DNA from: Streblomastix strix
Taxonomy: Eukaryota
NCBI GenBank assembly: GCA_008636045.1
Contig: SNRW01000038.1
Coordinates: 1 to 36,764 of the forward strand
Direction of reading: 5' to 3'
Length of the DNA stretch: 36,764 nucleotides
In this document: positions 1 through 35,859 of the stretch, piece by piece
Layout: each line of letters opens with the position of its first letter
How positions within the stretch are numbered: position 1 is the first letter of the stretch
Notes under the pieces: model-generated
What the model was told of the DNA's origin: nothing
Database searches by the model: none
The model's input: only the letters and a program-made list of their open reading frames with translations
Position numbers and translations under genes: made by a program

Positions 1-1103
1 CATAAATATTCAATTTTTATTTCTTTTATTATATAATCATTTATAAATATAAAAAACTTATTAAAATGAAGTATGGTATGTTGATGTGAGAGAAAAAGAA
101 AAATTAAACTGTTTTTATTTTCCTGGAACTGACTTCTTGCAAAATGTTTAAAGTGTACAAATCTGGACTGTTTAGTATAATATAGTTAAATATAGTTTGA
201 TGAATTTGGTTTAATTTCGTTGTAGCTTTGGAGATATTGAACTAAATAAAACATTCAAAATTTTTTTCTCTGTTTTATACCAATTAAATGAAAAAATGTG
301 AATTAATTCTTAATAATTTGAATTAATTAAAATGTAAGTTAATTTTATTCAATTTATTTTATGTTTTTTTTGTTTTATACATGGCAGATCACCTCATTTT
401 TATTTTTAATGTGGAGTTTCTCCTTGATTAGAGCGTTTTAATTATTTTGTATTGTATGACGAACTACAATTTAGAAATATTTTCAAATAATAAATAAACA
501 TCTAAATTCTACTTAATATATTTAAAAAACGACGCTACATAGAAAAACGACTGCACATAATGGGTTAGCCTACACTTTTTAAATTCTTTTCATAGAATTT
601 CTTTGTATGTCATTCAACTTTGGCACTTTTTAATCAACGCATATGGTGGTGGGCCAGATGTTAGACAGTTCTGAAAATTAATTAATTTATTAATAAAATA
701 ATCTTGTTTTGAAAATAGTAGAAAGGCGTTATTCATTCTGAAACCAGATTTTCGGTAAATACTCTTTTGATTTTCTCTTAGCTACACTTTTTATATTACA
801 CAAATAATATTCATCTTGTTCGGAGGATCAAATGAATTTAATATATTTTGATTGCTGAGAAATCGAATATTTCTCATTACTCTGCAACATAAACATAAAA
901 TTATTATTTTAATTACCTTTTACACTCAAATAGCATATTCTAATTCATTATAATACAATTTGCATTATTATTTAATCTATTTTACCAAAAAAGTGGTGAA
1001 TTTATAAAAAGTATGAAAAAGCCTTTTATATACGCGCTAAAAACATATTAAGTGATAATTATTATCATATTTTATTATTTACTTGAATTTTATTATTTTC
1101 AGT

Positions 1104-1835
1104 ATGCAAATTGCTGATTTGCGCGCGAGGATGCGTTTTGCAAAAGCTGAAGAAGAATAAGATATGAGAAATAAGAGAAAAATTGATATTATTAAGTTAC
1201 GAAAGACAAAGCGATCAGAAATACTACAACAATGGAGGGAGAATATGATATAACCTTAATAAATTACTTAATAACGACAGGTAAACAAGTAATCTGGCTT
1301 GGATTAATTTTGGCGAAATGTCGAAAATAAGAAAAATTCGAAGGGAAAAAAGCCAGATATAATTCCACTATCTCTAATAAATTAATAACATTCTAATACA
1401 TAATTTGATGACATTGAAGAGGAATATGCTGATACCATGAATCCATATTATATTAACATTGAAGAAGAAGGAGTAGATGGTGATGATGAAGATAGCAATG
1501 CAGAAGATAACCCAGACAATGATTATGGTGACGATGAGGAGGACGAAGAAGAAGAATTTGATGAAGAAGAAATTGATGATGAAAAGAATGAATAAAGGAT
1601 GGGAAAAAGCTGGGAAGAAGATATGGATCATTTTTTTGATGAATATGATGATGAAAATATTGAAGATGAGGATGAAGATGAAGATGAACAATATAAAGTT
1701 GATGTTTTCAGTAGCAGCAAGTTTGCCTATAATGATGAGCCTTAAAATGGCGAAGATAGTTATGATAATTAAATTCCAGACCTTGATCTGGACAAGAATT
1801 AAAAACACAATGAATTGTTTTTATTTGATTCATGA
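1104..1835 (+). CDS. Hypothetical 243-aa protein with an importin-beta-binding (IBB)-like basic N-terminus and an Asp/Glu-rich C-terminal half
   Basis: Single frame open from ATG 1104 to TGA 1833-1835 when TAA/TAG=Gln: MQIADLRARMRFAKAEEEQDMRNKRKIDIIKLRKTKRSEILQQWRE...DEEDEEEEFDEEEIDDE. A TTTTCAG just before the ATG could mean an upstream exon exists. Confidence 0.65.
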
Positions 1836-2702: not shown

Positions 2703-5700
2703 ATGACAGTTCCAACTGAAAGACAAGGTGAAACTGACCCGAATCACCGATTTGTCAAAGTTTGTCTTATCTATTATTTTTTCCTTTAAAATCTTTTATT
2801 TCCCTTCAAAAGGATTAAACGCAGATGTTGGGACGTGGATCATTTAAAGAAGTATATAAAGCATATGATAATGAACATGGTATTGAAGTTGCATGGAATC
2901 AAATTGCTAGTGCTAAACTTTCAGTGAAAGAAAGGTAGTAACTTGCATCAGAGATTGACACTTTGAAAACTATTCATCATCGCAACATTATTAAATTCTA
3001 TGATTATTGGGTGGATAAAAAGAAGAAATAAATTGTGTTCATCAGTGAATTGATGTCAAGTGGTACTCTGAAAGATTATATCAAGCGCACAGGTGTACCA
3101 CGTCCTCCTGTTCTACGCAATTGGTGCAGATAGATATTGAGTGCTCTTGCATATCTGCATGGTCTTAATCCTAAAATAATTCATCGTGATCTCAAATGTG
3201 ACAATATTTTCATTGATGGATATAATGGAGTAGTTAAAGTAGGTGATCTTGGTCTTGCTACCAAGTAAATAGAATCTCGATCAAAGAGCCTTATTGGAAC
3301 ACCTGAATTTATGGCTCCTGAATTATATGAAGAGAATTACAATGAAAAAGTTGATATATACGCATTTGGAATGTGCGTATTAGAGATGACCACTCGAGAT
3401 TATCCTTATAATGAATGTCATACTGCAGCTCAGATATTCAGGTAACATTAATATATATTTGTAGATACATATATATATATATATATATATTCATACAATT
3501 ATTTTATTTAATATTCAGGGCTGTCACCAGTGGAACTCCTCCAAAAGCACTTTCTAAAGTAACAGATGATAATACTAGAAACTTCATTGAATTATGTATT
3601 TAGAGAGAACCAGATAGAAGACCAACAGCAACTGAACTACTCGAATTCCCATTCCTTAAAGATAAGAAAGACATTGGAGAGGAAGTATGGTCTGTAATTA
3701 GTGAGAATAATTAAGGATTAGAGAATAATATTAATACATAGAATGCATAAATAGATGCATAAGAAACTACACAAGGATCTTCCTTTGAATAATATGCTTC
3801 TCCATTCTAATAAAGAGGAAACATTCATCCAATGGCCGTAACTCCTTCATTTTAAAGATTCACTACTGGATAACCTCCTTATTATCAGATTACTTAGAAT
3901 TAATAAGGAAATATCATTCATTCCCCAAAATTTTTAAATTCATCAATGAATGATAATACATTAATTAATTAGTCCTTTTCTAATGAATAATCAAATTCTG
4001 AAAATGATGGGAATATAATGAAGACAAATCCATCATCATTTGATTCATATTTTGAAGAACCACTTTTTTAGCAATAAGATTAACAGTTATAAAATTAACA
4101 ACCAACATCCTAATATTCTGTTGGTATATAAAACAACCAAATAGAAGGAAGCAATACTAAATAGGGAAATGATTCTGGAATTGAATAAGATGCAGCAAAT
4201 TCTAACATTTAAATTGTACAAATACAAGTGAAAGATTTACCATAATAAATACGTGCAATTATATCAGATGAGAATATTGATACAACAAGCTTTGCAAAAG
4301 AGTTATTGAAGTCACTTATGGCTGAATCAGGAGGATAGTATTCTGATGAAAGCGAAAATAATTAATAAAATTAAAATTAAGGATTTTAAGAGAATGAAAA
4401 TTAATACGATCCAGATAATGCTTCAATTAATGGAACAAATGTTAGATTTGATGATTAAGGAAATATTGTCCCAATCATAAGATAGTCTGTAGGTTAATAA
4501 TAAGACCAGTAATTATAGACATAATTTGGTAATCCATTATCTATTACTGCTTAATCATCAATGGCAACTATTAAAGAGAATTTAGAAGATGATTCTTTTA
4601 ATGGTGGAGAAATAGATACGGATAATATTAGTAGTCAGTTTAGTTCAAATGAAGATGAAGAAGATGATGATGATGATGGGGAAGAAGAAGAAGATGATGA
4701 TGAAGATGAAGATGAAGAATTTTAAAGCTCTGAAGATGATCAGGATAAATCTGAAACAGATGGAAGTGGAAACAGTTCTGAGATACAAACACAATAAAAT
4801 AAATCATAAATATTTGCAAATTCATTAGAATAATAAAACTTCTAAGATAATTTACAGAAAACTGATTAAATTGATATTCCAAATATTACATCAAATTAAA
4901 CAGATATTAATTTATCCGATCTTCAATTACAAGAAGAAAGTTCTCCATTATCACATCAGACAACAACACCTTCTATTGCATCTGCTGATTCTATTCATAT
5001 ATCTCCAATTGATGTGATGTATGTTCCTTCATCTGCTGGTTTTGAAACTCCAGATATAAATGCAATGATGAATAATTCTAATTCTACATCTCCATTATGC
5101 ATATCATCTCCAAGCAGGACTAATAGTTCTAATAAGGAAGAGGAAACCGTTAATAATAATCAGCAATGCTTATCTACATTAGTAAAATAAATTCCAATTG
5201 AGAGTTAGATTAGCCAAACTCACTAATAAGAAGATATAAACTCAAATTTGCAGCAAAACAATTTGTCTGAATCAATATCCAAATTAATATAGCAATAAAA
5301 TAATACATCTGATTCAGTATAATCGACAGATAATACAACTTAATAAATATTTTTCAATTCTGATGCATCTATAAGTAATTCTGCTAATGAAGATTAAAAA
5401 GAATAAGAAAACGAAGAAAAAACCTCAAGTCCAACAATAATGATATAATTGGCTGATACTAATACAAATAAATAAGAGAATAGAAATGATATTTATTAAT
5501 AATTTGCTTTCTCTCCTCGAAATGCAGGAAATTAGCCATTTACATAAAGGGAAAATGATACAAATTAATAATTAGATAGTAAAAATAGTATTAATTAACT
5601 ATCTTTAGAAGGATTAGATTAGAACAATAAATTTAATTAGAATTCAGAATCAAATGAAAAACATGTAGTTGAAAAAGTATTAAGACGAGCAATAAAATAA

Positions 5701-8700
5701 AAAAAGAAAATTAAAGAAAATTAGTAAAAAAATACGAATGCAATAATACATGGACCTCAAAGTGAATAAAATAATTAAGATTCGATTGATGATGGTTAAT
5801 CGCATATTACAGTAAGAGGGAGGTTGAAGCATAAACAAATATAACAAATGAATGCACCATTCAATGGGAGAACTAGTGATGTTAACTCTGGATTAACAAT
5901 GAGTAATTAATAATTATCAGATAAGTAAGTGATTAGATAAAATAAGAGTATGGAAAGAAATTATAAGAATAAAGAAGGTCTATAAATTGAAATTGATACA
6001 AACAACTAAAATTTAGCTGATAAAGTTTATTAAATGAATAATAATACGAAGCTCTAAATTGCTGTAAAAAATGTTCAGTTGAATTTTAGAAGATAATAAA
6101 ATAATAAATTACAAGTTTCTAATTAAAGTTTGATTCAACAATAAACTGTCAAATCAAACCAGAATTTAATTGGACCTGAATCTGGAGTAATAGCTGTTTA
6201 ATCAGATGTTATGAGTAATGATGAAAACACACCCAAACTAAATGAATCAATTAAAATTGATAACAAACAATCCATTCTACTTACTAGTAACACTATATTC
6301 GAAAATACATAAGAATATTAATAAGGTACAAATCAAGATGCATAAACAAATAACGCTTAGAATAAAAATCATTATTAAAGATAACGCTTAAATTCATTAT
6401 AAGATAACCACGATCATTTATTAAAGGATTTAGACGGAGTTCAAAAGCGAAAATCCATTTAAAAGATAAATCGAGCAAAATAGACACAAAGTGCTACAAA
6501 ATTTTAATAAATAAATGCTGAGTATATGTCATAATTATCAAAAGCTTCAAATTTCCCTGATGACTAGTTAAATGTTAAACAAAAAATTGATGCTCTCGTA
6601 ACTAATGGAACAATTCCATCTACTCCCAAATCAATTTCACAAAGTAACAGTATTGACAATATAAATAATTAAAAAAGAAATTTAGTGAAAAGTTTTGGGC
6701 ATTCATCTGGGCTTTTATAGAAACTATAAGATGGAAGAGTGAACAATAGAAGTGGAATAATTGAATTGAATGGTAGTAAGAATGAATAAAAATAACCTCC
6801 TGTAAAGATTGAGTTATAATTGAGAGTAAATCAATTAAAAGTAGATAATATGATGTAAAAAAGAAAATAGTAGGGCAAATTTATTTCTCCAAACCTATTT
6901 CGATCACCAGAATTATCAAATTTGATAATAGGACATTAATAAAATTAATAAAACTATCAGAATTTAGTATCAAATCGCTTCAATAACACCACTCCTGTTT
7001 CCGTTCATGGTAGATCGCAGTCTTCATCTTCAATTTCATCATAAGACTCTAATTAATCTTCAGCTCCAACTACATAGCCAATTACAACACAAACATCAAT
7101 TGATGACCTCTCACCCAAACCATCAAATACAAACCTTAGTTAGAATCAGATACAAACATAGACTAAATCTCCTCTTAGTCCTTCTTAATATATATAAAGA
7201 TCTTAATCTGTACAAACGGATGAAAATAATAAATATGCACAGTTGCCTTTTATTCAATATCAACAAGGAGGAGGATAAGCATCTAAAGTTATTTAAACTT
7301 CATTTAATAAGAACTTTAAATTAATGGATCATAAATCGATATTCAACTAATTACCATCAATTTCACCCCCAGCTTCTTAATCAGGTTAATTATCTCCAAA
7401 ATCAAATGATAAGATCATTAATCTTTCACAATCATTCAATAAAGATCCATCATTGTTACAATCTTCAATTATATATAAAGGGAAATAATCTCCATAAAAT
7501 AATTTTAATTTATCAGATTCAAATGATAATACAACTTCTATTACTCCTGATATTAGCATCCCTTCAAAAGTATTTATGCAGGATAGATCAATTAGTCTTA
7601 TGCATGAAGATCATAATGGAAATTAAGAGAATTAATTAGATAAAAACATAGTAAAGAGACCAAGTAGCATTTCTTATTCTACATCACATTAATAATATCC
7701 TATTTTGCATCACTCACTTTCATAGGATCAATTTTCTTAATAGAAGAAAAATGACAATAAACATTCATAAATATTATTTGGTGATAAATAAGATATTTTA
7801 TCTCAATAATCTGGTAATTAATCCGATAAAGAATCAGATTTAATAAAGACGCCAAAATCAGGCAGTGATACATAATAGCTATCAGATATTAAGAATTAGA
7901 TTAATAATAGTCTAAATTAAAGTTTGATATCAAATATTGGATCTGGAAAGGGAACTATTACTGTAACTCGCTCAAATCCAACTGAATAACCAAAACTTGA
8001 ACCATTGGATGAAATTGCACTTATTTAATCTCCACTTGAACAGTAGATTTCAAATTAACATGCTGATGATATCCAGAATGTTGATCCAAATAATATTCCA
8101 ATCTAACAAGATCTTTCAAATAATTTATTATAATAATCATACACATAATCGTAAAAGTTTTAAACATAAAATTAATTTTAGGAACTTTAAGAGGCAATTC
8201 CTTATTAAAATGAAGAATAGTATTCAAATCAATATTCAATGTAATAATCGTCTCAATAAATGACTGATCAATCTCTTAATCCTTTTTCAAATATTGATAC
8301 TTCTTCAACATTAGATTAATAACCTTTATAATCATCCAATACAAATGGTGAATATTTTGCCACTATTTAATATGAACCAAATAATTTATCTTAGATTGTT
8401 TAAAATCTCCCAGAAGAATAAAAGTGTAGTTTAATTCAATTCTTACAAGAATTAAATGAATAAAAAGAGAATGAACCTGTAGAAAATAATTAAACTACTT
8501 CATTTCTCAATTCATCATAATTGCATAATAACAATATCACAAAATCAATGACAAATATTTCCTCCAATTAATTTCAATCTAATAATTCATCACATCATAT
8601 TCCTAATGCATAACAGAATGTTTCATATTCCCATCAATTTTCATCATCATTAGAGCAATTTCCTCAACATTTTTAAAATACAAACGCTGAATAAACAAAT

Positions 8701-9488
8701 ATGTTAGCTTAATAATAATAGAATATTATTAATAACTAATAACTAAAAGATGATATATCTTTACAAGAATAATAGATGTAACAATCAAATATATTTTAAA
8801 AAGAATAAAATGTATAACATTCTGAACAAATGCAACATTAGATTAATAATAATTACTTAACACAGCAAGCTAATAACAAAATGTTGGATAATGAAGGATT
8901 TAGTATTTAAGACAATAAAGATATTTTTACTCAAAGAGCATAAGTATAATAAACTATTAATCCAATACTTAATACATATATGCATAATTAAGAACATAAA
9001 ACAGAGCGTTATTTCCAAATATATATTACACTTGAATTGCCTAATGGACTTAAAAAGAACATTCATTTCCCATTTTGCTCAGATAAAGACACACCAGAAT
9101 CAGTTGCAGAAGACTATATTAAATTTTATGATTTGAATGAAGAATTCCTTCCATAATTTATTGATATCATTAAATCTGAAGTTGAGAAGCATCGACTGGA
9201 TGTTGAAGAAGAAGAGAAGGAAAAAGCAAGGGAGAAAGAATAGATGGAAAGATACTAAGAATCAGAAGATGAAGAAATATATAGTTATGAAACATTCCAT
9301 AATAAATAATATCAAATCATTAAAGATTTACGTCAAAAAGAATTAAAAGTAAATATTAAAAATAGTAATGTCGATTAAAAATTAAATTTAGTTGATGCTA
9401 GAATTGTATAAAATTAAGAATAACAACCAGATGAAACAAATGAGCAAATTTTACAAATTCCAATAAGTCATCCTAGCCCATAATCCTC

Positions 9489-9532
<44 letters not shown>

Positions 9533-9572
9533 CTTAATAATCTTAATAATCTTAATAATCTTAATAATAATC

Positions 9573-9619
<47 letters not shown>

Positions 9620-9736
9620 CTTAATAATAATCTTAATAATAATAATCTTAATAATAATAATCTTAATAATAATAATCTTAATAATAATAATAATAAATAT
9701 AATAAATATAATAACCTTAAATATAACAACAACATC

Positions 9737-9796
<60 letters not shown>

Positions 9797-12073
9797 CAGA
9801 TATATCTTCATAATCTTAAATAATTTAAAATTCAGAAATTATAAATAAAGAAACAAATTATAATGTGAGTAAGACTCCAAATCTTAGTTAAATCAGTGAA
9901 ACAGAGTAAGATTCATAATCTCTATATTCATTATCTTCATCATCTACCTCATTAAATGATTAAATCCCAATTTATAAATCTCCAGAAACTGACAATAATA
10001 CAAATGATTAGAATCATCGAGTTTCTGTTCAACCTAATATAAAATAAAATTTAAATTAATTACAGCCTGAATAACTTGATTAAGATCCTGAGCAAATAAC
10101 TAATTAAAATATTATTGAATAATAGTCTTAATTCAAATTATAAAACCAGAATAGCAATAATCTTAATAATTAATCAAATTAAAAAGAAATAAAAATAGTT
10201 TAATAAAAAGAAAAAGAAATAAATAGTTCAGAAACAAGTATTTAGTAATAATAAATTGAATAACAAAAATAATAACAATAATAATAACAACAATAATAAT
10301 AATAACAATAATAATAATAATAAATAATTGAATAACAACAATAATAATAAATTGAAAAACAACATCATCAATAATAATAACAACAATAATAATAATAAAC
10401 AATAAAATAATAATAACTATAACAATAGCAATAATAATAAACTATTGAATAATAATAACAATAATAATAAACAATAAAATAATAATAACTATAACAACAA
10501 TAATAATAATAAATAATTGAATAACAACAATAATAAACTATTGAATAATAATAACAACAATAATAAACTACTGAATAATAATAACAATAATAATAAACAA
10601 TAAAATAATAATAACTACAACAATAACAATAATAATAAACTATTGAATAATAATAACTACAACAATAATAATAAACAATAGAATAATAATAACAATAATA
10701 ATAAACTATTGAATAATAATAACAATAATAATAAACAATAAAATAATAATAACTACAACAATAACAATAACAATAAATTATTGAATAATAACAATAATAA
10801 TAATAAACAATAAAATAATAATAACTACAACAATAGCAATAATAATAAACTATTGAATAACAATAACAATAATAATAAACTATTGAATAATAATAACAAT
10901 AATAATAAACAATAAAATAATAATAACTACAACAATAACAATAATAATAAACTATTGAATAATAATAACTACAACAATAGCAATAATAATAAACTATTGA
11001 ATAATAATAACAATAATAATAAACTATTGAATAATAATAACAATAATAATAAACTATTGAATAATAATAACAATAATAATAAACTATTGAATAATAATAA
11101 CTACAACAATAATAATAAACTATTGAATAATAATAACAATAATAATAAACAATAAAATAATAATAACTACAACAATAACAATAATAATAAACTATTGAAT
11201 AATAATAACTACAACAATAACAATAATATTAATAACAACTACATCAATAGCAATAATAATAAACTATTGAATAACAATAACAATAATAATAAACTATTGA
11301 ATAATAATAACAATAATAATAAACTATTGAATAATAATAACTACAACAATAATAATAAACTATTGAATAACAACAATAATAATAATAAACAATAAAATAA
11401 TAACAACTACATCAATAGCAATAATAATAAACTATTGAATAACAATAACAATAATAATAAACTATTGAATAATAATAACAATAATAATAAACAATAAAAT
11501 AATAATAACTACAACAATAACAATAAAAATAAATTATTGAATAATAATAACTACAACAATAATAATAAACTATTGAATAATAATAACAATAATAATAAAC
11601 AATAGAATAATAATAACTACAACAATAATAATAAACTATTGAATAATAATAACTACAACAATAACAATAACAATAAATTATTGAATAATAACAACAATAA
11701 TAATAAACAATAAAATAATAATAACAACAACAATAGCAATAATAATAAACAATAGAATAATAATAATAATAATAATAACAACAACAACAACAATAATAAT
11801 AAACAATAAAATAATAATAACTACAACAATAATAATAAACTATTGAATAATAATAACAATAATAATAAACAATAGAATAATAATAACTACAACAATAACA
11901 ATAATAATAAACTATTGAATAATAATAACTACAACAATAACAATAACAATAAATTATTGAATAATAACAACAATAATAATAAACAATAAAATAATAATAA
12001 CTACAACAATAGCAATAATAATAAACAATAGAATAATAATAATAATAATAACAACAACAACAACAACAACAAC

Positions 12074-12158
<85 letters not shown>

Positions 12159-14754
12159 TGAATAATAATAGATAAATGGAAATGAAATATTACTATAGAA
12201 AAATCCATTTTAATAACAGGAAAATATATAAATTATTGAACAAAAAGAATAATTACCTAATGAGAATTAATAATTGAATAATAAATTACAAGAACTAGAA
12301 AATAATGGATAAAACTAGTAGAATGAAAAGGTAATATAATAAATAGAAGAATTAAATAAACCAAATTAAAATATCATCTAAGCACAAATTGAGGGAAATA
12401 TTTTGAATAATAATAATGAAGCTGAAAAAGATTATAATTTATCGCAAACAAGTGAATAATTCAAAAGCAATTTTATGCAACAAACTTAAGTACACGTATT
12501 ATCTCCTTTTTAAGAAGAATATAAACAACATTCAATTCATGATTAAATAACAAATTCACAAAATAATAATTAATCAAAGATTGAGGAAAAAGACCCCGAT
12601 ATTAATGTTGTTGATAGTCAAACTCTTACATTTCCAGTATAATCTGACATTACAGAACATTTCATTTTTAGTCCAATTCCATTCCCCACTCATATTAATT
12701 AATCAATTCATCAATAAACTCCCAAAATTCCTCAATAATTGCAATCTGAACATATTTCTGATACAAACAATAATATTAGTTAAGATCCTATATAGTAAAA
12801 TAATAATAAATCTTAGTAAGAAATAAAAGAATATTCAATACACCCAACTTAGGATCAACAAAATGATTAATCTTTTGATCCTCCATTATAATAGCATTCT
12901 TCCCCAGCCCTTGATATGTATTCTTCATCTCCTTTTCCATCAACCTCCTCTTTACTTACTGATTTTAATAACAAAGGATAATGTTATTTATATTAGATTC
13001 CTTCATCATCTTCAATTTTAACTTCACAATCATAATATTCTTTATACCCACTTTAAATTGAAGAGCAAAAACCTCAAGGAAATGGATTATTGACTGAAGG
13101 TGCGGTTGATATAAAATAATCAGGGAGTACTATAGATATGATAGACATTAATAATTAGGTTAAAAAAGAAGAAACAATATAAATCAAAGATAATAAATTT
13201 ACACCTTCTACTCTCTTTCCTTAATATTAATAATCTAATTTAAAGAATGATTAAAATTAGATTGAAAATAGTTGTGGAGCAGATATAGTAATTGGAGAGA
13301 AGAATGATAATAAATAAGATTAGAAAATAGTAGAGATAAATAAAGAGAAAGAACACAAAGAGAAATAATCTGAATCATAATTAGAAGCTCCATTTAAACC
13401 ATCAAAATAGCATTAATCTTAATCACCAATCAAAAATGAAATAACATCATCTACATCTTCAACATTACATCATCAGATTTTTCCATAATTATCTCCATCT
13501 CCTCCAATTCCATCAACTTCAACAAATATAATATAATAGATTCACAATTAAAATACAAATGAATAAATAAGCATTATGAATACAAATGAACAAATTCAAC
13601 ACGTGAATTCAATTGATTAGACCCTTAGTCATAATTATTCACATTAAGTATAAGTACAAACTAAGTTAGTTCCTATTTTCATTTCTCCACCAGCAGTATA
13701 AGGATCCGATACAGATCCAATTGGATATCTCCTGAATTACAATCCAGGATAAATTAAAGATCTTGCAAGTGCATGTGGATAAGATGAACTAATTGAACTG
13801 AACAGACGCATATTCTCACTTGTTACTAAAAGATATGAAATGGCTTCGAAAACATTATTTGAATCTCTTGTGGATTTAACAGACTCTGGAGAGAAAGGTG
13901 ACAAATTGAACTAACTTCGTGGATCAATGCTTATCCAATTCCGTGATCTTATGAGTAAACAAGAAGAATAACTTGATGAAATGACATCAGAGATATTCAA
14001 AGGTAGGAAGCCGCAATTGAATCAGTTTGCTGCTGCCAATGCAACACAATAAACTTCTCAATCAACAAATCAATCTCAATAACCTCATCAATTGCAACAA
14101 CCACAATCTTCAACTCCATCGGTCTCACTTTAAAATCATAGTCCAATATAAAATTCATTACTTCCAAAACCTTAAGTTTCATAGTTTGCTAATGTTTAAA
14201 ATGGACCCGAATCTGGAATATCTGTTCAACTTAAAGTAAATACAGCATAATCACAATAATAAGCATAATAAGTATCACCTCAATAAACAATTACTTAGGC
14301 TATTGGTAATGCATCTATCCAATTACCAACAACAACTTTGGGATCTTTTACACCTCCATCAACCTAATCAGCATCAATAACTTCCTAATCCAATGCACTT
14401 GTCTTTTATTAACAAGAAATACCACCCGACAGTGGAGTATTTGTGGAAGTTTTATTGAAGAAAAAACTTCGAGATTTTAGACTGGATTATGAGAAATAGT
14501 AAAAAGAAAAATATTTACGAAAAGAAAAAGCAGAACGGCAGAAAAAACAGCAAAACATTCTAATGCAAACTCAAGCTTAAAACTAGCCATAATCAATATC
14601 TTCTACACCTCATGACAACAATCTACCTCTTCCCAATACTCATTAACCAACCACTGTCAGTAGTGCAGGTACTAATTAGGATCCAATATTCAAATCATCA
14701 TCACCACCTATAGCTGATTAAAATCAAACTAACATTCTCACATCAAAATAGTGA
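2703..14754 (+). CDS. WNK: WNK (With-No-Lysine) Ser/Thr kinase, ~3,973 aa, 3 exons (2703-2759, 2813-3441, 3519-14754)
   Basis: [14 protein letters not shown] (Lys in subdomain I), [61 protein letters not shown] introns at 2760-2812 and 3442-3518. I scanned the 11.2-kb third exon and found no in-frame TGA before 14752. Confidence 0.95.
3469..3490. repeat. (AT)n dinucleotide microsatellite in WNK intron 2
   Basis: Uninterrupted ATATAT run inside intron 3442-3518. Confidence 0.85.
9010..9190 (+). other. CCT/PF2-like (OSR1_C-type) domain within the WNK CDS
   Basis: [42 protein letters not shown] resembles the WNK CCT-like motif (NIHFPF..D.DT..SVA.EM as recalled from plant WNKs). Confidence 0.7.
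9490..9798 (+). repeat. (TAA)n microsatellite with TCT interruptions, encoding poly-Gln/QQS inside WNK
   Basis: Pure TAA runs and TAATAATCT units, all in the WNK reading frame. Confidence 0.95.
10246..12171 (+). repeat. ~1.9-kb coding minisatellite: Q-runs punctuated by TIE/TIK/IIE/L
   Basis: Units such as TAATAATAACAATAATAATAAACTATTGAA (QQQQQQQTIE). Higher-order blocks recur, e.g. 10861-10980 reappears ~240 nt later. Every ATT GAA stays in frame. Confidence 0.95.
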
Positions 14755-14951
14755 AATGAATTTATATTTTGTTATATATCTATTTTTTTTAATTTTTTAA
14801 TTTTTTTGTCATTTGATATATTTTTTTTGCCTAACATCTTTTTTGGATTAGTAATTATTTTTTATTAAAGTTTAATTTTGATAAATCTTAGATCGGTGAT
14901 AATGAATAAAGAGGGTATTTATAATAGATAAGTTTTATTTTTATCTTTTTT

Positions 14952-17900
14952 TCACCTTTCGCCTTTCACAGAGTCAAGCGCAGTATCAAAGTGATTGCTA
15001 GTCTGTATATACAAATATAATTAAATTTAAAAATATTGTAAAGAAATTAAAATAATACTATTATAGGTTGGTTAATGTTGTCATTCAACGCATTTAACAC
15101 TGCTTCAATGCATAATGCTTCTATATCTGCTCCAGAAAATCCATTGGTCTATACCCAATTAAAAAGTATAGTTTGTTATGTAATTTATTATTTTATAATA
15201 TATTTAAACCTCACTGGCGATTTTATAAAGATCAATGATACGATCATCATCGTCATCATCTTTATGACCAAATTTATTCTCGTCTAAATTTGTTTTTCTA
15301 TCTTTTATTTATTCTAATTCTTTCTAATACCTAAATTTCCTTTCTATTTTTTCGATATTTATAATATCTATTCAAATCCAAAATAAAATTTGTTGAAAAG
15401 TTCAAAATCATAGTTAATGCACACTTTTATCTGTTATTTTCTTAAGGTACACAAGTAATATTTCTGCCCTTTCCTCCGTATTTGGAAGATGAAATTAGAT
15501 CTGAACATCAAAACGACCTCCAAGCAAAGATAAGAAAGGGGAAGAAGAGAATAAAATTAAATTTAACAGAATAATATAATTATTAATAAGAATACCTGGT
15601 CTGAGTAATGCATCATCTAGCAAATCTGCGCGATTTGTTGCAGCCTTTAAAAAATATCAAATAAATAAATATTGATAAAAAAATGGGAATTCGTAATTAA
15701 ATCTGGCATTTTTAGATTAATAAATACCATAACAATAACTCCTTCAATGTGTTCGATGCCATCCATTTCTGTCAGAAGTGTAGTTAATATTCTATCTTTA
15801 ACTCCATTTCCTATAAATATATATAAATATAAAATTAAGATCAATAATAATACACATTTTATTATAATCCACAATCTTCTTCCAAACCATCATATTCACC
15901 ACCACGTTTTCCAACTATTGAATCAATTTCATCAAGAAAAAGAACGCAAGGTGAGGACTGACGAGCTCTGATGACAATTTTAACCAACAAACAAAAATAT
16001 CTAAAATTTCAAATAGCAATATTATTATGGAAAAAAATAACCTATGAAAAGCTTCTCGTAATATCCTCTCTGCATCACCAACATAACAAGAATAAACCCC
16101 AGCACATGAAAGGACGATTAGTTGAGCATTCATTGCTCGACACGATGCTTTTACAATGGTTGTTTTTGCTGTTCCTGGAGGTCCCCACAAAAGTACTCCT
16201 CGAGGTGGAGGAATAAGAGAAAGAAGTCTTTAAGGAAGTTACTGCTCAGATGAAGATGCTTATGAATTTAAAGAAAAATTATCTGATTAGTTTTGATGGT
16301 GTAATGTTGGCCATACAACAGATTCAATAATTTTCTATGAATATCGCATATATTCAGAAATAAATATCAAAATAGTGAATAAATATATGATATACTCTCT
16401 TAACTTCATGAGCACCACCAATATCTTCCCATTATGTATTTGGGACCTCTGATACAAATCTTAGTATAAAAAAAATATTATCATAAAAGACATAAAAATA
16501 ACCAAACCCTGTTCCAGAAGCAAGTGAGGGAGTTATGACTGTTAAAGCATTATTAACATCATCCGATTATATTTATATAAATGAATTGTAATCAAAAGGT
16601 GAATCATTTTCCAACGAACATTATTCTTTAGTTAAAATTTGATTTTCTATTTATTGTTTTCTCCTGACCCATTCTCTTCCTATGCACACTTTGATTAACT
16701 CATTTTTAATTTTGATTAAATCTTCTGGAGTATATCCCGCAGTCAATGGTGAAAGATAATTTGCGAGTTGTTCTAATGGAGATAATACTGAAGATGAAGT
16801 CGAAGATTATTTCTAAGATAAAAACGAAGGACTAATTTTCAAAGATTAAGTTTCATGTATCAATAAATCTATTTATTCCAAGCAATTTTCTTTTTCTTCC
16901 TATTTAATTTCTATTTATCCACCTGATTTTTAATTAATTTATTTTTGTTATTCAACATTATTTATAAATTTCATCTTTATTCCATAAAATAATTATTTCA
17001 ATAAATTATTTCTCGATTGAATATTTGGAGGAGGTACCATAATTTCTCAGTCCAATCGGCCCATACGCCTTAATGCTATATTCATGTCGTCCAACCTAAA
17101 CAATTCAGTGAAAACAAAAATATAATAAAAAATATTTAAATAAAAAACCTTTTTGTAGTAGCTATAACGACAGCATTATTTGAAAGTGCTAATGTTATTT
17201 TATCTTAACATTTCTTCTAGTTTAATTTACCATTTTCGGTTATAATTTATTAATCAGAAATTTCTTTTTTCGATTTATCCTTTGATTGATATGATGAAAT
17301 TCCAATTTCTGCTCCCACGCCATCAATAAATGATAAGATCATCTATGAGATGTGTTGTTTTTCGGTTGAATGAGGTAGAGTGCGAGGGCATAATTAATCA
17401 ATGTCTTTAATAAGTAGAATAGTTGGTAGAATCTAAGTTGTATTGTTATGTTTATTTATTGAATTCTCTTTTAAAAATTCTTTCTTTTTCTTTTTTTATT
17501 ATTGTTTTTTATCTTAAAAGTAATTCTTATTATCGGAGTTTTATTAATTTTCTTTATCCATTTTATTTTATTCAATTTCAAATTCTTTTTCTTCATTAAA
17601 TTATCCTGAGACCTAAGATAGTATTTCTCTCACATAATCAACACTTTAAATTCCTTTATTGGTCTGGCAACTTTAATTCAATTATAAAGGATCAAGAGTA
17701 ATTATTCTAATTCCCAAGAAATAAGCAACATTATGTATGATGTGTGTCTTTCCAATCCCTCTGGGGCCATACAAAAGAAGACCTCGTGGACGACGAGCAC
17801 CCAGCTGTTTCAATGCATCATTATTGTACAAAGAAAGATATATAAAGTCAGCAACATCACGTGCTACATGCTAATTAGCTTCACAATTTAAAATTTAATC

Positions 17901-18677
17901 GGGATTTTCATTTATATTTTTTGAGTTTGGTTAGTTTTAAAGTGAATAAGTCTAATAAGTTTGCTATTCATTTTGGCTGAAAATATGAAGTTATGGTAGT
18001 ATAAAATTAGTAAGTTGAGGGAGAGGAATTATTAATGGAGATGAAATGTCTCATTAATTTGAAAAATTACACTTCTCTTCTGGCAATGATAAATTTAAAT
18101 TAGAAAAAGAAAATCTTGCAGCTTATGGTTATCTGTTCGATAGTTTTTACAGTTCTGGTTTCAAATTCTGTTGCTTTTGCAAAATTGGTTTTGAATTAGA
18201 AGTAGAAAGCGATAAATAATCTTAAATTATGAAATTGGTTGATAGATCCATTTTAGTGGAATAATGTGGAGAAAATGCTTCGACTCGAAAGAAAACTCGT
18301 TCATTAGGACTTGGAAAAGGACCAAATATTGCATTTGTGTTCAAGTCAATAAAAGAAGTAGCCAGTTACAATATAAAAGAGAATATAAATTTCTATAAAA
18401 TGACAATAAAAGAAAATACACAAATCTCAAAAAAAATTAAAATATTCAATTTTATGAGTATGCAAACTTTAAAATCCTTACATTTTGAGCATTATTTGCC
18501 TTCAGAGTCTATAGTTGAAATATTTTAATAATTATCAGGTCTAATGTTCAGTGGAAAGATCCCACAAGATTTTTCACATTTTGGCAGTTTTCTAGCGTCT
18601 GGAATGTCAAGTATTATACTCAAGATGATTGATTGACTAATACATTATTAAGATGTGGATTTTTGTACTCCTTTCAT
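14952..18677 (-). CDS. CDC48-family double AAA+ ATPase, most like AFG2B/SPATA5L1; ~10-12 introns; contains in-frame TGA codon(s)
   Basis: D1: RRPRGLLLYGPRGIGKT, degenerate Walker B ILLIKDID, SRH ALRRMGRLD*EI. Linker VPNTQWEDIGG. D2: RGVLLWGPPGTAKTT, YVGDAERILREAF, VLFLDEIDS, LTTLLTEMDG, ALLRPGRFD. Stop at 14952-14954. The start at ATG 18677 is inferred (in frame with D1). Confidence 0.85.
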
Positions 18678-18850
18678 TGCAAATCGTTATAAAAATTAAG
18701 CATCAAAACTTAAATTTCCTCATATATGAAATTTATTGGACAAATCATAATATGTACTATAATATTAAATAAAGATGAAACTCCGACAAACAAATTATTA
18801 AATAAGTTCATATATCCTGAAAAAATTGTAAATTAATTTCTATGAAATAT

Positions 18851-21800
18851 TCACTAACTCAGATTTTGTACCACTCCAATTCGTGATCCCATCCGCAAAA
18901 GTGTTTCCACACGAAGTTTACTGTTGTGAACAAGATCAGAATCATATGCAACTGCACCACGAGGGAATAGAGCAACAACAGATGAGCCACCATGGAGAAA
19001 ATATCCTAATTCTTCTCCAATTCTCACATTCTATCCCACATTAACGGATGAAACACATGAACCTATGAAATATGCAATATATAATTTAATAATTATAAAA
19101 TAAATTTATTATATATTGCATACCCACATAACAAGCTCCTATCATAATTAATATGAAATCAAATGCTTTAGCTTTCATATGAAAAATTAAACGTGCATTT
19201 TCTGTAAATACATCGATATCTTAACGCACAGCAACAGGATTAACAGTATAATATGTGCCATCCACTCTTTCAAGGTTAGTTACTTTCGCATCAAGTGGGC
19301 TGCAAATAAAAAAAGGGGGGGGGGAAAAATTATTTAATATAAAAAAATAAATAAAAGGAATTATGAATAGAAAAATAAATTTTGAAGCCAACCAAAAAAC
19401 ACGATGAAAATCTTATGGAGCTAATCTCCCTATGAAAATTGATGCTCGAAGTTTCTTATGTTTGTACATGTTATCTTACATAAAATTAGTTTGTACAATA
19501 TTTCGATCTGATTTATTATTTTTATTATTCTAAAGAGTTTAAACATCTAAATTTTGTGATTTTTAATCAATTTTATTTTCAATGGTATTTATCTATTCAT
19601 TATTTCTATTTATATTAAAATTTGAAATGAGTAATGAAGACTATGATGATTATTAAGAATTGAAAGATTAAGGAGAAAAATTAAGAGGAGAAGAGACACT
19701 TGGAGAAAATGTAAATTGGGTTTAATTTTGGGGAGATGAAGATCTTGAAGGAGATTTAGATTGAAGATATTTAGCAACATTTCCTTTGATCTTTTTTAAA
19801 TCAGTTGTTTGGTTAGTAGTTATTTTATGATTGCAGAGTGAACATACAACAATTCCTTATACATCAGTCCCTTTCTCTGTATTCATTTGTTTCGTAGCAG
19901 TTACAATGTTTCCAAGTTGTTGCTTTTGAGTGAAAATAGGAGAAACAACGAAAGCAGCTGTTGCAGAAGCTTGAACGGCTTCCAAAGGCTGAATTGGTTC
20001 TTCATTCTGAGATTAATCATCATTGTCTATTTCAAGAGGAATTTGTACTAATTATGGTTATTCAATCTCAGCAATTCTACATTCATTATTCGTTTCAGTT
20101 TTGATGTTAAAATTTGGTTTTTCATTCGGATTAGCAAATTATTAATCTTCAATTAATGATTGTGAATTCTTATTCTACTTAATATTTTAACTTTCTCCAT
20201 CTATTGGCTATTAAGAACTATTCTCGACTTGACTATTTTATAGCAATGCAGAATTATTATTGTTTCCATTCAAAGATTCAAATTTTAATTTATCCATATC
20301 AGTTAATATTTCATAAGTATTTGAATGATCTTTTGTATTATTTTGAATTGTATTGATTTAAATGAATTAAGATAATTAAACTGGAACAAATTATTTTTCA
20401 ATTTATTATTCATTAGAAATTTAATTGGGAATTACTTATTAATTCAAATTCTATTATTTTTCACCAATAGATTATAAGTCGATGTGTTAGAATGATTATT
20501 GAGTATTGTCTAATTGAGAATGAATTTTTCCATCTGCAATGGCTTTTGTAAGTATTTTCTTTCTGCATTAACTACAAATTACCCTTCCTTGCAAAATCTG
20601 CTGTTATTGAGATACTTTATTATTTATCAATGAATAATTCTATTAAAATTCATTTTATTTTAATAATGTTTCATTTTAAGAAGATTCATTGCTATTTTTT
20701 ATATTTGAATTTGGTAATAATGAAAAAAGATCAATATCAAAAGGAATTAATGAAGAAGATTAGAATTTAATTTCATTTTCTTATTAAATTTGTGTTTATG
20801 AAGGTTGATTAGTAGGTTGAAACTCAACAGTTTATTTTTGTTTCTTTTTGTTTTTATTTTGTTTTTATTCGTTCTTTTCTTCTTTTTATAAAAATGTGAG
20901 GAAATTTCTTTCTTTTTTCTACGAATTTAATTAAGCACGCAATTAAGCCTTTGTTTATTAATATTGAATCTTTTATTCTTTCTTTATTTTCTTTTATTCA
21001 GCTTATGCTTCTCTTTGTGCCAATTTCTTCTGTCTTTGTGCATGCTGTTTAATTCGCTTGTTTTCTGCTTTTAATTCTTTTATCTTTATTTTGTTTTCAA
21101 TTTTTTTGGCTTTTTCTTCCTAAGCTGGTGTTAAATATCCATCAGGTTCATCATCATCATCATTATCTTAATCATCATCATCATTTTCATCTGAATCTAA
21201 ATCATCAATTTCATCTTCTTCAATAAATAAATTTTCTTCAGGAATATCAAAACTAATAGTTTCCTCTTTAACTGCATCAATTGTTGATTCTTTATTTGTT
21301 GGTTTATTTTCAATCAATTAAATAGAAAATGGTTATTTTCTTTCATTTTTATTTGTTGTTAAAAACTAATTATTATTAATTATTTATCCATTTCCTGATA
21401 ATTAACTTCCAGGTCCCAACTTAATATCTATATTTTCTTCAACTTCAAAAATCTTAACAAGTTATTATTTATTAGCAAGAAGTGTTGAAATACTAAATTA
21501 TCTTCCTTTAACCCAAAGTGTTGTTGCTTCTTTAATTGAATCAAATACCATTAATCTACAGTCACACGGTGAAACAACAATATTCAATTATTTAATTTGA
21601 TCTAATGAACATTCTTCTTCATTTCTCTATATTTCACAATTGCCATCTATCAATCGAGCTCCATGTTTTAATTTACGAGAAAAGAATGAATCAAATGTTT
21701 TATAGAATTCGGGTGGATACTCAACCTCACCAATATCAATTTAATAACTTCTAATAAATGGAAATATCTCATTTACACTTTGTGTATTGCTTTTAGACTT

Positions 21801-24800
21801 TCCCATATCTTTAGTCATCTTAATAAACCATTACTTCATAACTTTGGTCCTTAATAAGCTTCTTCCCCATTTGGTGCAATAACCAGCTCTAAATGCAGCT
21901 ACAAGAACATTGGGCACAAATTCCTTCACTATGAGTCCAGTTGCTCTGTCAACAACTCGAAGGGATCTCGAATCAAGGAGTTCATTTATCCTTGAATTAC
22001 TCAGATTGTGTTCAGCTCTGTATTTCTTCACTATTTTTGGAGTTAGATATCCATCCCATAATTGTCTTGAAAGCTAATTACTAATTTAATTCACTTTCTT
22101 TTTTGAAATTGTTGGTTATTTCTTAATTTTCTTCTTCTATTACTTTTGATTTCCTTTTTATTTAATTAATGAATGTTAAGACTATTAAAATAAATTTTAT
22201 TGTTAAGAATCAGATTATATTGATTGTTAAACAGACTAAAATGCGGTTTAAGGTGAAATGCCTATGGTCCCTCCTTTTGCTTCTGCTGTTGCTATACTAA
22301 ATGGAATTGATGCATTATGATCACCAAACTGTTTCTAATTAGATTATTGATTAAGTATTAAGGGTTGTGTTATATTTTGTTATTAATTGTCTGATTCTAA
22401 TGATTGAGGTTTTTAGATTGAAGATTGTTATAATTAATATTAATTATTATTTCCTTCAATTATTTAATCCTAAGATTCTTCTGATTCACTTGAACTTTAA
22501 TAAATAATCTCTTCATCTTCTTCATCATCATCTTCTTCTTCTTTCTCGTCTTCTATCTCACTTTCTGATTCTTATTCATCTTCACTTTCTTCTTCATCTT
22601 CTTCTTTATAATCATCACCAACACAAAATTCACTGTTTTCTGCATATGTAGAATTATCTTCATCCGATTCATATGAGCTATCTTAAATTTCTTATTCTTC
22701 TTCATTTTCTTTCTTTTTGTTGAAAAAGTTGATTCCTGATCCATTACTAACAATATTATCAGATAATGCAGATTCATTTTCATGTTCTTCAGATATTTTA
22801 TCGAATTAATTTTCAATTTTTCTCTTCATCTTCCATGTCTTTCTATTTCGATTTCTTTCTGTTTCATAAATATCATATCCAACAGATAATTATCTCTTCA
22901 GAATTGAAATCTTCTTCAGCTTTGATTCATGTTTGATCTTTTCTTCTTCATCCATTTCATCAAATTCATCAGATAATGAAGATAATGAACTTTCTTCACT
23001 ATTTAATCCACTTCTGTCTGAAGGAGGAGCAACTGAGAAAGGAGATGAATTTGAAAGATCACGAATATTGGTTGAATTTGAACTATCTTATGATTTGATG
23101 GATTATGTTGTATCATCATCATTATAAGAAACAGCAGATGGTAAAGAATGTGGAATTTATTAAAAAATTTAAATGTCTTCATTTTATTTATCCATTTATT
23201 TGATTTATATTAATTCTTGATGTTAAATATCAGGTAATTTAAATGGACCTGATTAATAAGAGTTAATTTTTTGATCTTACGATGATTGAGAATTTACTTA
23301 TGTTTAATTCAATGAAAAAGGTTTCTTCAAATTTGTATTTATTTTATCTTCATTATTTACTTTTGGAATTTAGAATGGTTTTTATGGAGAATGAGGCGGA
23401 GATGTGGGAAGAAGTGGTTTCAGATTATTGTTCAGTTTTAAATTTGAATTTTAATTATTTGAAATGGATGAGGTAGAAAATGGTTATGAAATTTATTAAG
23501 TTGTATATGGTTATGAATTAGAAGAGTATAATGAAATGGATTTTGATGACTTATTCTGGGTTTGAATAAGAGCTTATGAAGGAGTAAGAAATGCTTTTTT
23601 CATTTCTCTGAGAACAATTGGTGTTGCTTGTTTAATTACAAAGCGAGCAAGAGGATTTGAGGGTAAAAATGGACCAAGTGGATTAAAAAACATAAAATAT
23701 AATTTAGCAGCTCTTGAAATATGGTTAATCATCTTCTTTCCTCTTTCATTATCCTATACTTATTTTAATGAAGGATCTTTTACACGTTATTTCTCTATTT
23801 CTAATTCTTTCAAATCTGTTTTAAGTTTAGAATAATCTGCTTATTTTTAATTGTGCAAAATTATTTAATTATTGTTTTGATTTGAATCTTTTTATTACTT
23901 TTCAGGATTTATAGAATTGTTTGATTTATTAAATTTATTTAAATTATCTTTTTTAAATTCATCAATTTCATTTCTTTATTAGATTTCCTTCTATTTTATT
24001 CTTTCTTTCACTTTCTCCTTTTCTAATTCCTTTATTTTCTTCTTTTCTTCAATCCTCCATTTAACTTTCTCTATTTTAGATTGATCTCTCTAGTAAACCT
24101 TCTCTTATTCATCTAATTCTGCATTTCTTTCTCTAACAGCGCCTTTGATGGTACCAGCTCCATACAGAAGAGAGAAAGATCCTGGATTGAATAGACAATC
24201 ATCAATCCCATTATGAAGTGCAGATAAACATGTTGACCCAAGAAATGCTTGAATCTCAAAAAGAGGATCAGGATTAAGTTAAGGTGCAAATATAACTTCT
24301 CTCATAACCATTGATAGAATCTCTTCTTCACTTTGTGAATTGGCTGAAAATGGATATTATTTCTATGGTTGGTCATTAATATTCAATTGAGTGCTCGATG
24401 TGTCTCTATTTTATTATATAGGGAAAAGAAAGCTTGGATCTTATACTTATTATTAGGAATAATTAATTCCAGTTATTTCCTATTTTTATTCATTCTTTTA
24501 ATTTTTATATCCATTTTATTGACTTTGATTTGAATTTTGTATAGATTTTTGCAATTATTTTTTATTCTGTTTACTTTTTTATGGTTAATTTAAATGAGTT
24601 GGGAAGAATGATATTCCTGATATTGGACCAGTCCGTAATATTAATGAAATGGGAAATTTAAGGAGAATTAATACAAGAGAGGCAATGCTACAACTAAGAG
24701 TGTTTTCATCTGGATGAGCAGCTCTGAATAAAGGAGGCCACATACTATCTGGGAATGATTCAAGAATAAGTGAATTTGTTTCTTCATCAGATTATGAGAC

Positions 24801-26432
24801 AGCATCAGAAGATTCAATCTTTTCAAACTCATATGTAAAAACCATCTCTTTCTCTAAAGAAGAAATTGATGGAATATCAGCAGAAACAGCTGCTAAAAAT
24901 ACTGAAAATTCAAAAGGGTTTAATCTTCCATCTTTATCTAGATCAAAGTGACTAAGAACATGCATATAAACATCTGCAGCAAATACTTCTTTAGCTTAAA
25001 AGTTAATATGAACAGATATTTCACCTTTTTACTGAGTTAAATGAGCTATTTTCCATTATAATTATCTTATTTCTTTTTCTTAGGGAATGAATGCTGCTGG
25101 AAATTATTCAATATTGGTGATAGTTGAGTTGTTAGTAATCACATTAAGACTCTATTGTTATTATTGTTGTTTTTCATTTTGTGTATCATTCTGAATTTAT
25201 TCAGATTTATTATTCTCATCATCTTTTAAAGTATAATTTTATGAATAAGATTCAAAATCTGTTTCTTTTTCTTATTCTTTTAATTAATCGTTCTTCTTCT
25301 TCTTTCCAAAAATAGTAAAATTAAATCTTTTCTTATCGTTCTATTATTTATCTTATCCAATTTATGATAACTACTGGTTTTACTTCAATGAAAGAGGTAT
25401 AATAAAAGGAATTGTATACCTACCATTGAGAATATTCAGAATAAAATTATGAAGTGTGATATCTGTATCTGTCATTAACGGATTTTCAAAGAGTGCGCCA
25501 TTTAGAATTACTTATGCATTTGATATTTTTAGTGGTTACCCAAATAATAATTGTTTTTATTTTAATGCTATTGCAGATAATAGTTTTTCTTCCTCATTTG
25601 TAAGCAATTTTTGAATAATATAAAATTTACATTTATTTTCATTTGTGAATGGTAAATGTAAATGTTCCATCTCCAATTTCTTTTTCCTATGCAATTCATT
25701 TATTTTACGAATTAAATCAATGATTTTATCTCCTTTCTCATATTATTCACTCTGATTGTTCTAATTAACAATATTCTCTGCAATTCCTAATAGTATATCT
25801 TCAATAGTGAACATCCAAGATCCAATATATCCATCTTTATATTACCTCTTCCCCTTTTGTTACTTCTTCTGTTTTGAGCTCTGGTTCACATTTGTTTATT
25901 TTAATTTTGTTTTTATCTTTGTTTGACTTTCTTGATGGTTATCTTTATGCTCATTATCTTACTTAGCAATGAATGGACTTTAATTTGATGCTTTTGTTTG
26001 TGCTTCCTGAATTCGACGCTGAAACAGAGAAACAATAATTCTGTAGTTAAGATCACTAGTCTTGATCCAAATAAAGACTTCTTCTCTTATCTCTGAATTA
26101 TATTAATGTGAATTAGATGTTTGATCAACATTGATTGGAATTGTGCTGATTGAGTCTATGTATTTAGCATTGGGTATGATTGTCGGATGTGGAAAGGCAA
26201 AACTTTAAACGGCAGGTCTAGAAATGTCAATGTTTTATTACTGTTATTAATTTTTAGAAATTTTTATATGTTGGCGATTAATAAATGTATTTTTGATGAT
26301 TGAAGGAGAAAGAGAATTGATTGTTAATATGTTTCTACCAAATCTAAATACTAGTTTGATTTTATTTCCAGCGGTTTTAGAAATTCTAACTTTATCTGCA
26401 GTAATACGTAGTACGCCAATCATAGGATCCAT
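18851..26432 (-). CDS. PSD2: Phosphatidylserine decarboxylase proenzyme, PSD2-type with C2-like region and EF-hand, ~2,475 aa, 3 exons (26432-19393, 19299-19124, 19062-18851)
   Basis: YKTFDSFFSRKLKHGAR, VSPCDCR, WVKGRQFS, RLAPQDFHRVFCP, YYTVNPVAV, DVFTENAR, GEELGYFLHGGSS (self-cleavage site), ETLLRMGSRIG. EF-hand loop DLDKDGRLNPFE near 24910-24947. The 7.0-kb first exon has no in-frame TGA. Confidence 0.92.
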
Positions 26433-31781: not shown

Positions 31782-31857
31782 CTATTAAAAAACTATAGTA
31801 GTAAAATAAAAAATTGAAATTATATATTAAATTAATAAATTATATTAACGTGAAAAG

Positions 31858-35809: not shown

Positions 35810-35859
35810 GATTTTAATACACATAATAAATATATTTAATATTAATTTGATTTTAGGGT

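What the first reader, a model, noticed from the sequence alone, without database searches (positions are those of the whole stretch)
17047..17049. In-frame TGA inside the SRH motif of an otherwise intact AAA ATPase
Seen: on the minus strand AGG CGT ATG GGC CGA TTG GAC TGA GAA ATT reads RRMGRLD*EIMVPPP. This is colinear with the CDC48-family motif RRPGRFDREI, so there is no room for an intron to remove it. The rest of the gene (D2 domain, splice sites) shows no frameshift or decay. TGA is the only stop left in this TAR=Gln code. Inference: either UGA is decoded as an amino acid here (Trp, Cys, Arg or Sec) or this is a CGA/TGG>TGA mutation or amplification artefact.
Basis: partly seen in the sequence, partly recalled or inferred. 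Interest (0 to 1): 0.8.

Follow-up and report, generated by a model that had tools for sequence, protein, structure and literature searches.

The report
Lone premature stop in oxymonad ATPase
An otherwise intact ATPase gene of the termite-gut protist Streblomastix strix has one stop codon in its middle, likely an ordinary recent one-letter mutation or DNA-amplification error rather than a new way of reading the genetic code.

Summary
The TGA at 17047-17049 (minus strand) is real. It is the only internal stop in an 11-exon, 759-codon model of a two-ring CDC48-family ATPase, probably AFG2B/SPATA5L1, of Streblomastix strix. A separately assembled contig of run X1 spans it unchanged, so a base-calling slip is unlikely, but X1 may be the window's own source. 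Both other oxymonad orthologues have Lys here; the family has mostly Arg or Lys, and Trp in 0 of 273 motifs. UGA is not a general sense codon: 0 in 6,042 codons of two long exons and 0 in 923 Pfam-matched residues, and TGA ends this gene at the homologous place. No SECIS, leaky context or plausible skipping intron was found. The gene shows no decay and is the only S. strix member of its published orthogroup. Best reading: a recent one-base nonsense change, either in the sequenced cell or fixed during amplification (0.7). Site-specific readthrough or selenocysteine stays open (about 0.13), because the species has SelB and no RNA was available.

The parts
17047..17049 (-). In-frame TGA, codon 267 of the 759-codon model, next base G; Lys in both other oxymonads
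   Evidence: same base in contig record 1 of run X1
18073..18251 (-). Candidate first exon from an ATG at 18251 (uncertain; could extend to an ATG at 18677)
   Evidence: open in frame with the rest of the model; no orthologue support; no NCBIfam hit for 18054-18677
17977..18072 (-). Candidate 96-nt GT-AG intron with a CTAAT branch-like site at 18010; holds a second in-frame TGA (18051-18053), so that one is likely intronic
17149..17976 (-). D1 exon: Walker A intact, Walker B degenerate (Lys-Asp for Asp-Glu; also degenerate in Monocercomonoides and Blattamonas)
17096..17148 (-). 53-nt GT-AG intron just upstream of the stop-bearing exon
16508..17095 (-). Exon with D1 second region of homology, the TGA, and the D1 helical subdomain; in-frame ATG three codons after the stop (17040)
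14952..16459 (-). Nine exons of the D2 AAA domain and lid, with intact Walker A, Walker B and arginine finger, ending in TGA at 14954-14952
   Evidence: NCBI model P0001 covers only this part and starts at 16550 in another frame

Best explanation
The sequenced DNA carries a single in-frame TGA in an otherwise intact CDC48-family ATPase gene, likely AFG2B/SPATA5L1, and it is likely a recent one-base nonsense change that ribosomes would read as an ordinary stop. Shown: the stop, the intact gene around it, Lys in both oxymonad orthologues, and no other in-exon TGA in what was tested. Inferred: the parent codon was one step away (TAA = Gln, AGA or CGA = Arg), since a Lys codon needs two steps. Also inferred: translation would end inside D1, and the message, with nine introns downstream, would likely go to nonsense-mediated decay. 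Whether the change sits in the cell's chromosome (about 0.4, including a very young pseudogene) or was fixed during single-cell amplification (about 0.3) cannot be told from contigs.
For: One internal stop in 759 codons; 10 of 10 introns are GT-AG. No relaxation of selection: of columns shared by the two other oxymonads, this gene keeps 42 of 76 before and 144 of 183 after the stop, against 42 of 66 and 144 of 177 for Monocercomonoides, and 42 of 78 and 144 of 210 for Blattamonas. End branch 0.88 against 0.79 and 1.33. So the change is recent. UGA is not a sense codon elsewhere: 0 in 6,042 codons with 11 TGG, while the two other sense frames of the same exons hold 32-193 TGA each; 0 in 923 Pfam-matched residues, 6 of them Trp. 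TGA closes this gene where the Blattamonas protein ends and closes the neighbouring decarboxylase gene. The +4 base is G, among the tighter UGA contexts in yeast (PMC4446449 passages), and the 100 nt downstream have no unusual structure (z +0.49). The S. strix assembly is described as a fragmentary single-cell genome (PMC10703272 passage), and C>T false calls from lysis and amplification are described for single-cell work (PMC6756205 passages). The window is CpG-depleted (o/e 0.50). [quoted passage not shown] UPF1 is reported in S. strix (PMC1501061 passage).
Against: No read or transcript with a sense codon at the site was seen. The one contig that spans it has TGA at mean word depth 19.1 with no other letter, which weighs somewhat against a late amplification error, although contigs drop minority alleles. 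The gene is the only S. strix member of orthogroup q2019945 and is kept under selection in all three oxymonads, so a fixed null is not expected; the assembly is only 69.6% BUSCO-complete, so a second copy could be missing. The simplest artefact, C>T, needs CGA, which is 14 of 100 Arg codons in the two long exons and 5 of 35 in this gene, and the orthologues have Lys rather than Arg. The 6,042-codon count uses frames picked for being open and of low complexity, so its P of 8e-10 is an overstatement.
Confidence: 0.7

Rival explanations
1. The TGA is fixed in the species and is read through at this site by a near-cognate tRNA (Gln from the UAA-reading tRNA, Arg, Trp or Cys), giving enough full-length protein.
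For: The gene is single-copy in the published orthogroup and shows no decay. The site tolerates substitution: Arg 89, Lys 24, Thr 4, Gln 2 and others among 129 D1-type motifs; yeast Afg2/Drg1 has Gln and human AFG2A Lys. D1 Walker B is degenerate in all three oxymonads, so D1 is likely structural. TAA is the commonest one-step neighbour of TGA in the long exons (844 against AGA 75, CGA 14, TGG 11). TGA is the leakiest stop in yeast and mammals (PMC13192750 passage).
Against: +4 G and no CAR-type hexamer or stem-loop downstream. [quoted passage not shown] No second case in the window. The codon is not conserved as a stop in relatives.
Confidence: 0.09
2. The TGA encodes selenocysteine.
For: S. 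strix is listed with SelB (Streblo_st26379) and selenophosphate synthase (Streblo_st8513) in the supplement of PMC10703272, so UGA recoding machinery likely exists.
Against: No SECIS family match at E up to 10 in 13500-19000; 0 SECIS-like hairpins in the 750 nt after the gene by a simple scan; the 252 nt after the stop fold no better than shuffles (z -1.33). The site is Lys/Arg, not a Cys position. An oxymonad SECIS unlike the models would be missed.
Confidence: 0.04
3. Splicing removes the stop, for example as a 21-nt GT-AG mini-intron at 17066-17046.
For: 31 donor-acceptor pairs keep the frame and skip the TGA; the shortest begins GTATGG, a good donor.
Against: All 31 delete at least the seven codons holding the arginine-finger motif that Monocercomonoides and Blattamonas keep. 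The 21-nt candidate is 57% GC against 11-23% for the 10 modelled introns; published S. strix introns are 46-229 nt.
Confidence: 0.04
4. The gene is functionally split: translation stops at the TGA and restarts at the ATG three codons later, and the two halves assemble.
For: An in-frame ATG at 17040, where Monocercomonoides has Ile and Blattamonas Ala; everything downstream is intact.
Against: Reinitiation after a 270-350-codon frame is inefficient in eukaryotes, and the break would fall before the last core strand of D1 (both recalled, not tested). Both relatives are single chains.
Confidence: 0.03
5. UGA is a general or position-dependent sense codon in S. strix, as in organisms with all three stops reassigned.
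For: UAA and UAG are already Gln; such codes are known in ciliates and Amoebophrya (search listing).
Against: 0 TGA in 6,042 and in 923 tested codons; all 4 Trp of this gene are TGG; S. strix transcriptomes were translated with the Hexamita code and the paper's main text has no mention of UGA or TGA (PMC13002328).
Confidence: 0.02

Closest known systems
AFG2B / SPATA5L1 (Spaf-like) type II AAA+ ATPase
   Same: Two AAA domains; groups with Balamuthia SPATA5L1 in a 25-row clade (SH-aLRT 100), apart from the AFG2A clade (99).
   Different: D1 Walker B degenerate and no recognisable N-domain in the oxymonad proteins; one in-frame TGA in S. strix. A plain phmmer search ranks AFG2A above AFG2B for the Monocercomonoides orthologue (285.6 against 248.1 bits).
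Oxymonad orthogroup q2019945 (MONOS_10531, BLNAU_5780, Streblo_st470)
   Same: One gene per species; the next gene id, Streblo_st471, is the decarboxylase that is this gene's neighbour in the window.
   Different: The two relatives read Lys at the site and are single open chains; the S. strix database model holds D2 only.
TAR=Gln (table 6) code of Streblomastix strix
   Same: TAA and TAG are read as Gln throughout the window; TGA terminates.
   Different: No in-frame UGA use turned up in the searches run.
All-stops-reassigned codes (Condylostoma, Amoebophrya sp.)
   Same: UAR already sense; an internal UGA in a conserved gene.
   Different: There internal UGA is frequent and maps to one residue, usually Trp (recalled; listings only). 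Here it occurs once, at a Lys/Arg site.

Membership tests
CDC48-family type II AAA+ ATPase | Two tandem AAA domains with Walker A motifs and second regions of homology | tested here: met
CDC48-family type II AAA+ ATPase | Catalytic Walker B (Asp-Glu) in both rings | tested here: not met
   D2 intact; D1 degenerate in all three oxymonads. A lineage trait, not decay.
AFG2B / SPATA5L1 | Groups with SPATA5L1 rather than AFG2A, CDC48 or PEX1 | tested here: inconclusive
   Quick tree of 59 of 113 candidate rows supports it, but with one labelled SPATA5L1 row, midpoint root, an unfinished careful search and no clade test; phmmer scores favour AFG2A
AFG2B / SPATA5L1 | Forms a heterohexamer with AFG2A for pre-60S maturation | not testable with these tools
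   human complex described in PMC12019325 (passages)
Selenoprotein | SECIS element in the 3' UTR | tested here: not met
   a divergent SECIS would be missed
Selenoprotein | UGA aligns with Cys in homologues | tested here: not met
   Lys in both orthologues; Cys in 2 of 273 motifs and 0 of 129 D1-type motifs
Selenoprotein | Organism has Sec machinery | not testable with these tools
   no genome held; SelB and SEPHS listed for S. strix in a paper's supplement
UGA-reassigned genetic code | Frequent in-frame UGA at conserved positions of one amino acid | tested here: not met
   (this window only)
UGA-reassigned genetic code | Cognate or altered tRNA and altered eRF1 | not testable with these tools
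   0 tRNA genes in the window; no genome held
Programmed readthrough site | Leaky context (+4 C, CAR hexamer) or 3' stimulatory structure | tested here: not met
Decayed pseudogene | Further stops, frameshifts, broken splice sites or raised divergence | tested here: not met

The most novel reading that the evidence does not exclude
Streblomastix strix, whose only stop codon is UGA, keeps a fixed UGA inside a single-copy conserved ATPase gene and decodes it at that site (as Gln through its UAA-reading tRNA after a TAA>TGA change, as another residue, or as selenocysteine). That would be a natural first step toward a code with no dedicated stop, in a lineage where this is not described.
Probability: 0.13. 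Interest if true: 0.7.

Novelty: new member of a known kind. Interest (0 to 1): 0.2.

Why it matters
Under the best reading it matters little. It is one nonsense change, and its practical effect is that the database model of this gene holds only the D2 half and starts in the wrong frame. If independent cells and transcripts all carry the TGA and full-length protein is made, it would show site-specific decoding of the last remaining stop codon in an oxymonad, which bears on how codes with all stops reassigned arise. One RNA alignment would settle it.

Tried and rejected
No whole genome is held, so no genome-wide TGA count, tRNA or eRF1 check was possible. Sequencing-run search: 3 runs, one sample, all DNA contigs; no RNA holder listed. 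Laying them at likeness 80 over 14900-18800 gave mostly short chance matches and no listed piece over the codon. The narrower lay found the spanning contig in X1; X2 and X3 had no cover there, which proves nothing. An exact 27-base pattern next to the stop found 0 stretches in metagenome contigs. A word search with the D1 exon found 0 of 1071 candidates. The search with the Monocercomonoides protein returned no further oxymonad; the Blattamonas orthologue came from the HMMER search. Rfam gave 2 chance-level hits and no SECIS. Three look-ups of earlier scan findings returned nothing. The S. strix genome paper is not held, and the 2003 paper on its code was seen only as a citation. The second in-frame TGA at 18051-18053 was considered as a second case and set aside as likely intronic. 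An assembly base-call error was judged unlikely, and so was a decayed pseudogene. No structure or complex prediction was run, since it could not decide the question.

Full report
Observation. Codon 17049-17047 on the minus strand is TGA, in frame, directly after the Gly-Arg-x-Asp of the D1 second region of homology. The window is AT-rich (13-31% GC per kb) and is read with TAA/TAG as Gln. The D2 half matches exactly an NCBI record named Streblomastix strix AAA ATPase on a 36,764-base contig. TAR=Gln is the known code of this species (PMC13002328 passages).

Gene anatomy. Exon limits were set from tblastn of the stored proteins. Eleven exons from 17900 to 14952, with 10 GT-AG introns of 48-83 nt and 11-23% GC, give 759 codons with stops only at codon 267 and at the end. 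A further 96-nt intron (18072-17977) links a candidate 5' exon and removes a second in-frame TGA at 18051-18053; that 5' part has no orthologue support. Published S. strix introns are 46-229 nt (PMC1501061 passages). All 31 frame-keeping GT-AG pairs that skip the stop delete the conserved motif; the shortest is 21 nt and 57% GC. The NCBI model is 322 aa, D2 only, and starts at 16550 in another frame.

Identity. The orthologues are Monocercomonoides P0002 and Blattamonas P0036. The supplement of PMC10703272 lists orthogroup q2019945 as MONOS_10531, BLNAU_5780 and Streblo_st470, and Streblo_st471 is the phosphatidylserine decarboxylase that lies next door in the window (searched rows only, and that file was cut when stored). 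So no second S. strix copy is annotated, in an assembly of 69.6% BUSCO completeness. A quick tree of 59 of 113 candidate rows (18 labelled proteins, this gene and 40 drawn at random) puts the three oxymonad proteins together (SH-aLRT 100) inside a 25-row clade with Balamuthia SPATA5L1 (100), apart from AFG2A (99). The careful search did not finish and no clade test was run. Plain phmmer ranks AFG2A above AFG2B, so AFG2B is likely but not proven. D1 Walker B is degenerate in all three oxymonads.

What sits at the site. Lys in both oxymonads and Arg in Balamuthia SPATA5L1; Lys in human AFG2A and Gln in yeast Afg2. Among 197 stored proteins (25 without the motif), 273 motifs gave Arg 171, Lys 47, Gln 4, Cys 2, Trp 0; the 129 D1-type motifs gave Arg 89, Lys 24, Gln 2, Cys 0, Trp 0. 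A Lys codon is two steps from TGA, so the parent codon is inferred to be TAA, AGA or CGA. Their counts in the two long exons are 844, 75 and 14.

Is UGA a sense codon here? The WNK-like and decarboxylase long exons hold 0 TGA in 6,042 codons with 11 TGG, against 32-193 TGA in each of the other sense frames. These frames were chosen for being open, so the P of 8e-10 overstates the case. A less circular test read 16 stretches, 15 of them with TGA as X, against Pfam: the 16 matched segments counted, 923 residues with 6 Trp, hold 0 TGA. TGA ends this gene at the position where the Blattamonas protein ends. A general or position-dependent reassignment is therefore very unlikely, on the evidence of this window alone.

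Site-specific recoding. S. strix is listed with SelB and selenophosphate synthase (PMC10703272 supplement rows), and Monocercomonoides has the pathway (PMC6759080 passages). But Rfam finds no SECIS in 13500-19000, a simple scan finds 0 in 750 nt after the gene, and the 3' spacer folds like its shuffles. The +4 base is G and the next 100 nt have no unusual structure. In yeast the leak order is C > A > G > U, and efficient readthrough needs third-position mismatches (PMC4446449 abstract and passages); TGA is still the leakiest stop (PMC13192750 passages). Readthrough is not excluded, since the site tolerates several residues and the gene is single-copy.

Is the base real? In run X1 a 4,461-base contig of mean word depth 19.1 covers 16850-17250 with 0 other letters and 0 gaps. 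This argues against a consensus error in the window's assembly. It is not independent, because X1 may be this DNA's source, and contigs drop minority alleles. The S. strix assembly is a fragmentary single-cell one, and lysis and amplification are known sources of C>T false calls (PMC6756205 passages). A depth-2 contig of X2 differs from the window at 18431 and 18404, which may be variation between libraries or error.

Age. The gene keeps 55% of the columns shared by the other two oxymonads before the stop and 79% after it, against 64% and 81% for Monocercomonoides and 54% and 69% for Blattamonas. Its end branch is 0.88 against 0.79 and 1.33. There is no sign of relaxed selection downstream, so the stop is recent, artefactual or bypassed. 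[quoted passage not shown]

Verdict. Observation confirmed; interpretation partly supported. A recent one-base nonsense change gets 0.7 (about 0.4 in the cell, 0.3 from amplification), near-cognate readthrough 0.09, selenocysteine 0.04, splicing 0.04, split gene 0.03, general reassignment 0.02; the remainder is unassigned. Searches for a printed report of in-frame UGA use in Streblomastix showed none in their listings. The genome paper is not held and the 2003 code paper was not seen; their text or supplements could bear on the number of cells sequenced and on UGA use. Interest 0.2.

Noticed in passing
window 31818-32304 and 35877-36363: A 487-nt inverted pair at 88% identity. Each copy lies just 5' of a likely ribosome-biogenesis gene: a multi-RRM gene (RBM19-like, name recalled) on minus, and a BOP1 N-terminal part on plus.
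   Followed up: partly
window 36400-36764 (+) and about 35250-35380 (-): BOP1NT profile positions 30-131 lie on the plus strand at the contig end, while positions 218-259 and a weak WD40 match lie on the minus strand. This may be an inverted chimera at the contig end, as amplification can cause, or a second BOP1 copy.
   Followed up: partly
window 2738-14754 (+): Protein kinase (WNK-like, name recalled) followed by a 3,779-codon open frame with long Gln tracts, mostly TAA.
   Followed up: no
window about 18840-26432 (-): Phosphatidylserine decarboxylase whose catalytic domain is split by a long low-complexity insert within a roughly 2,300-codon exon; listed as Streblo_st471.
   Followed up: no
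window 14952-16550 (-): The NCBI model P0001 begins with 14 residues from the wrong frame and omits D1, apparently because of the stop.
   Followed up: yes
window 18404 and 18431: A depth-2 contig of run X2 has a 3-base insertion and an A>T difference here, possibly variation between libraries or an error.
   Followed up: no
window 35478-35873 (-): A 132-codon open frame with no Pfam match, between the repeat and the BOP1 C-terminal part.
   Followed up: no
window 1056-1835 (+): Acidic open frame with a weak Iwr1 match below the curated cut-off (E 0.0018).
   Followed up: no
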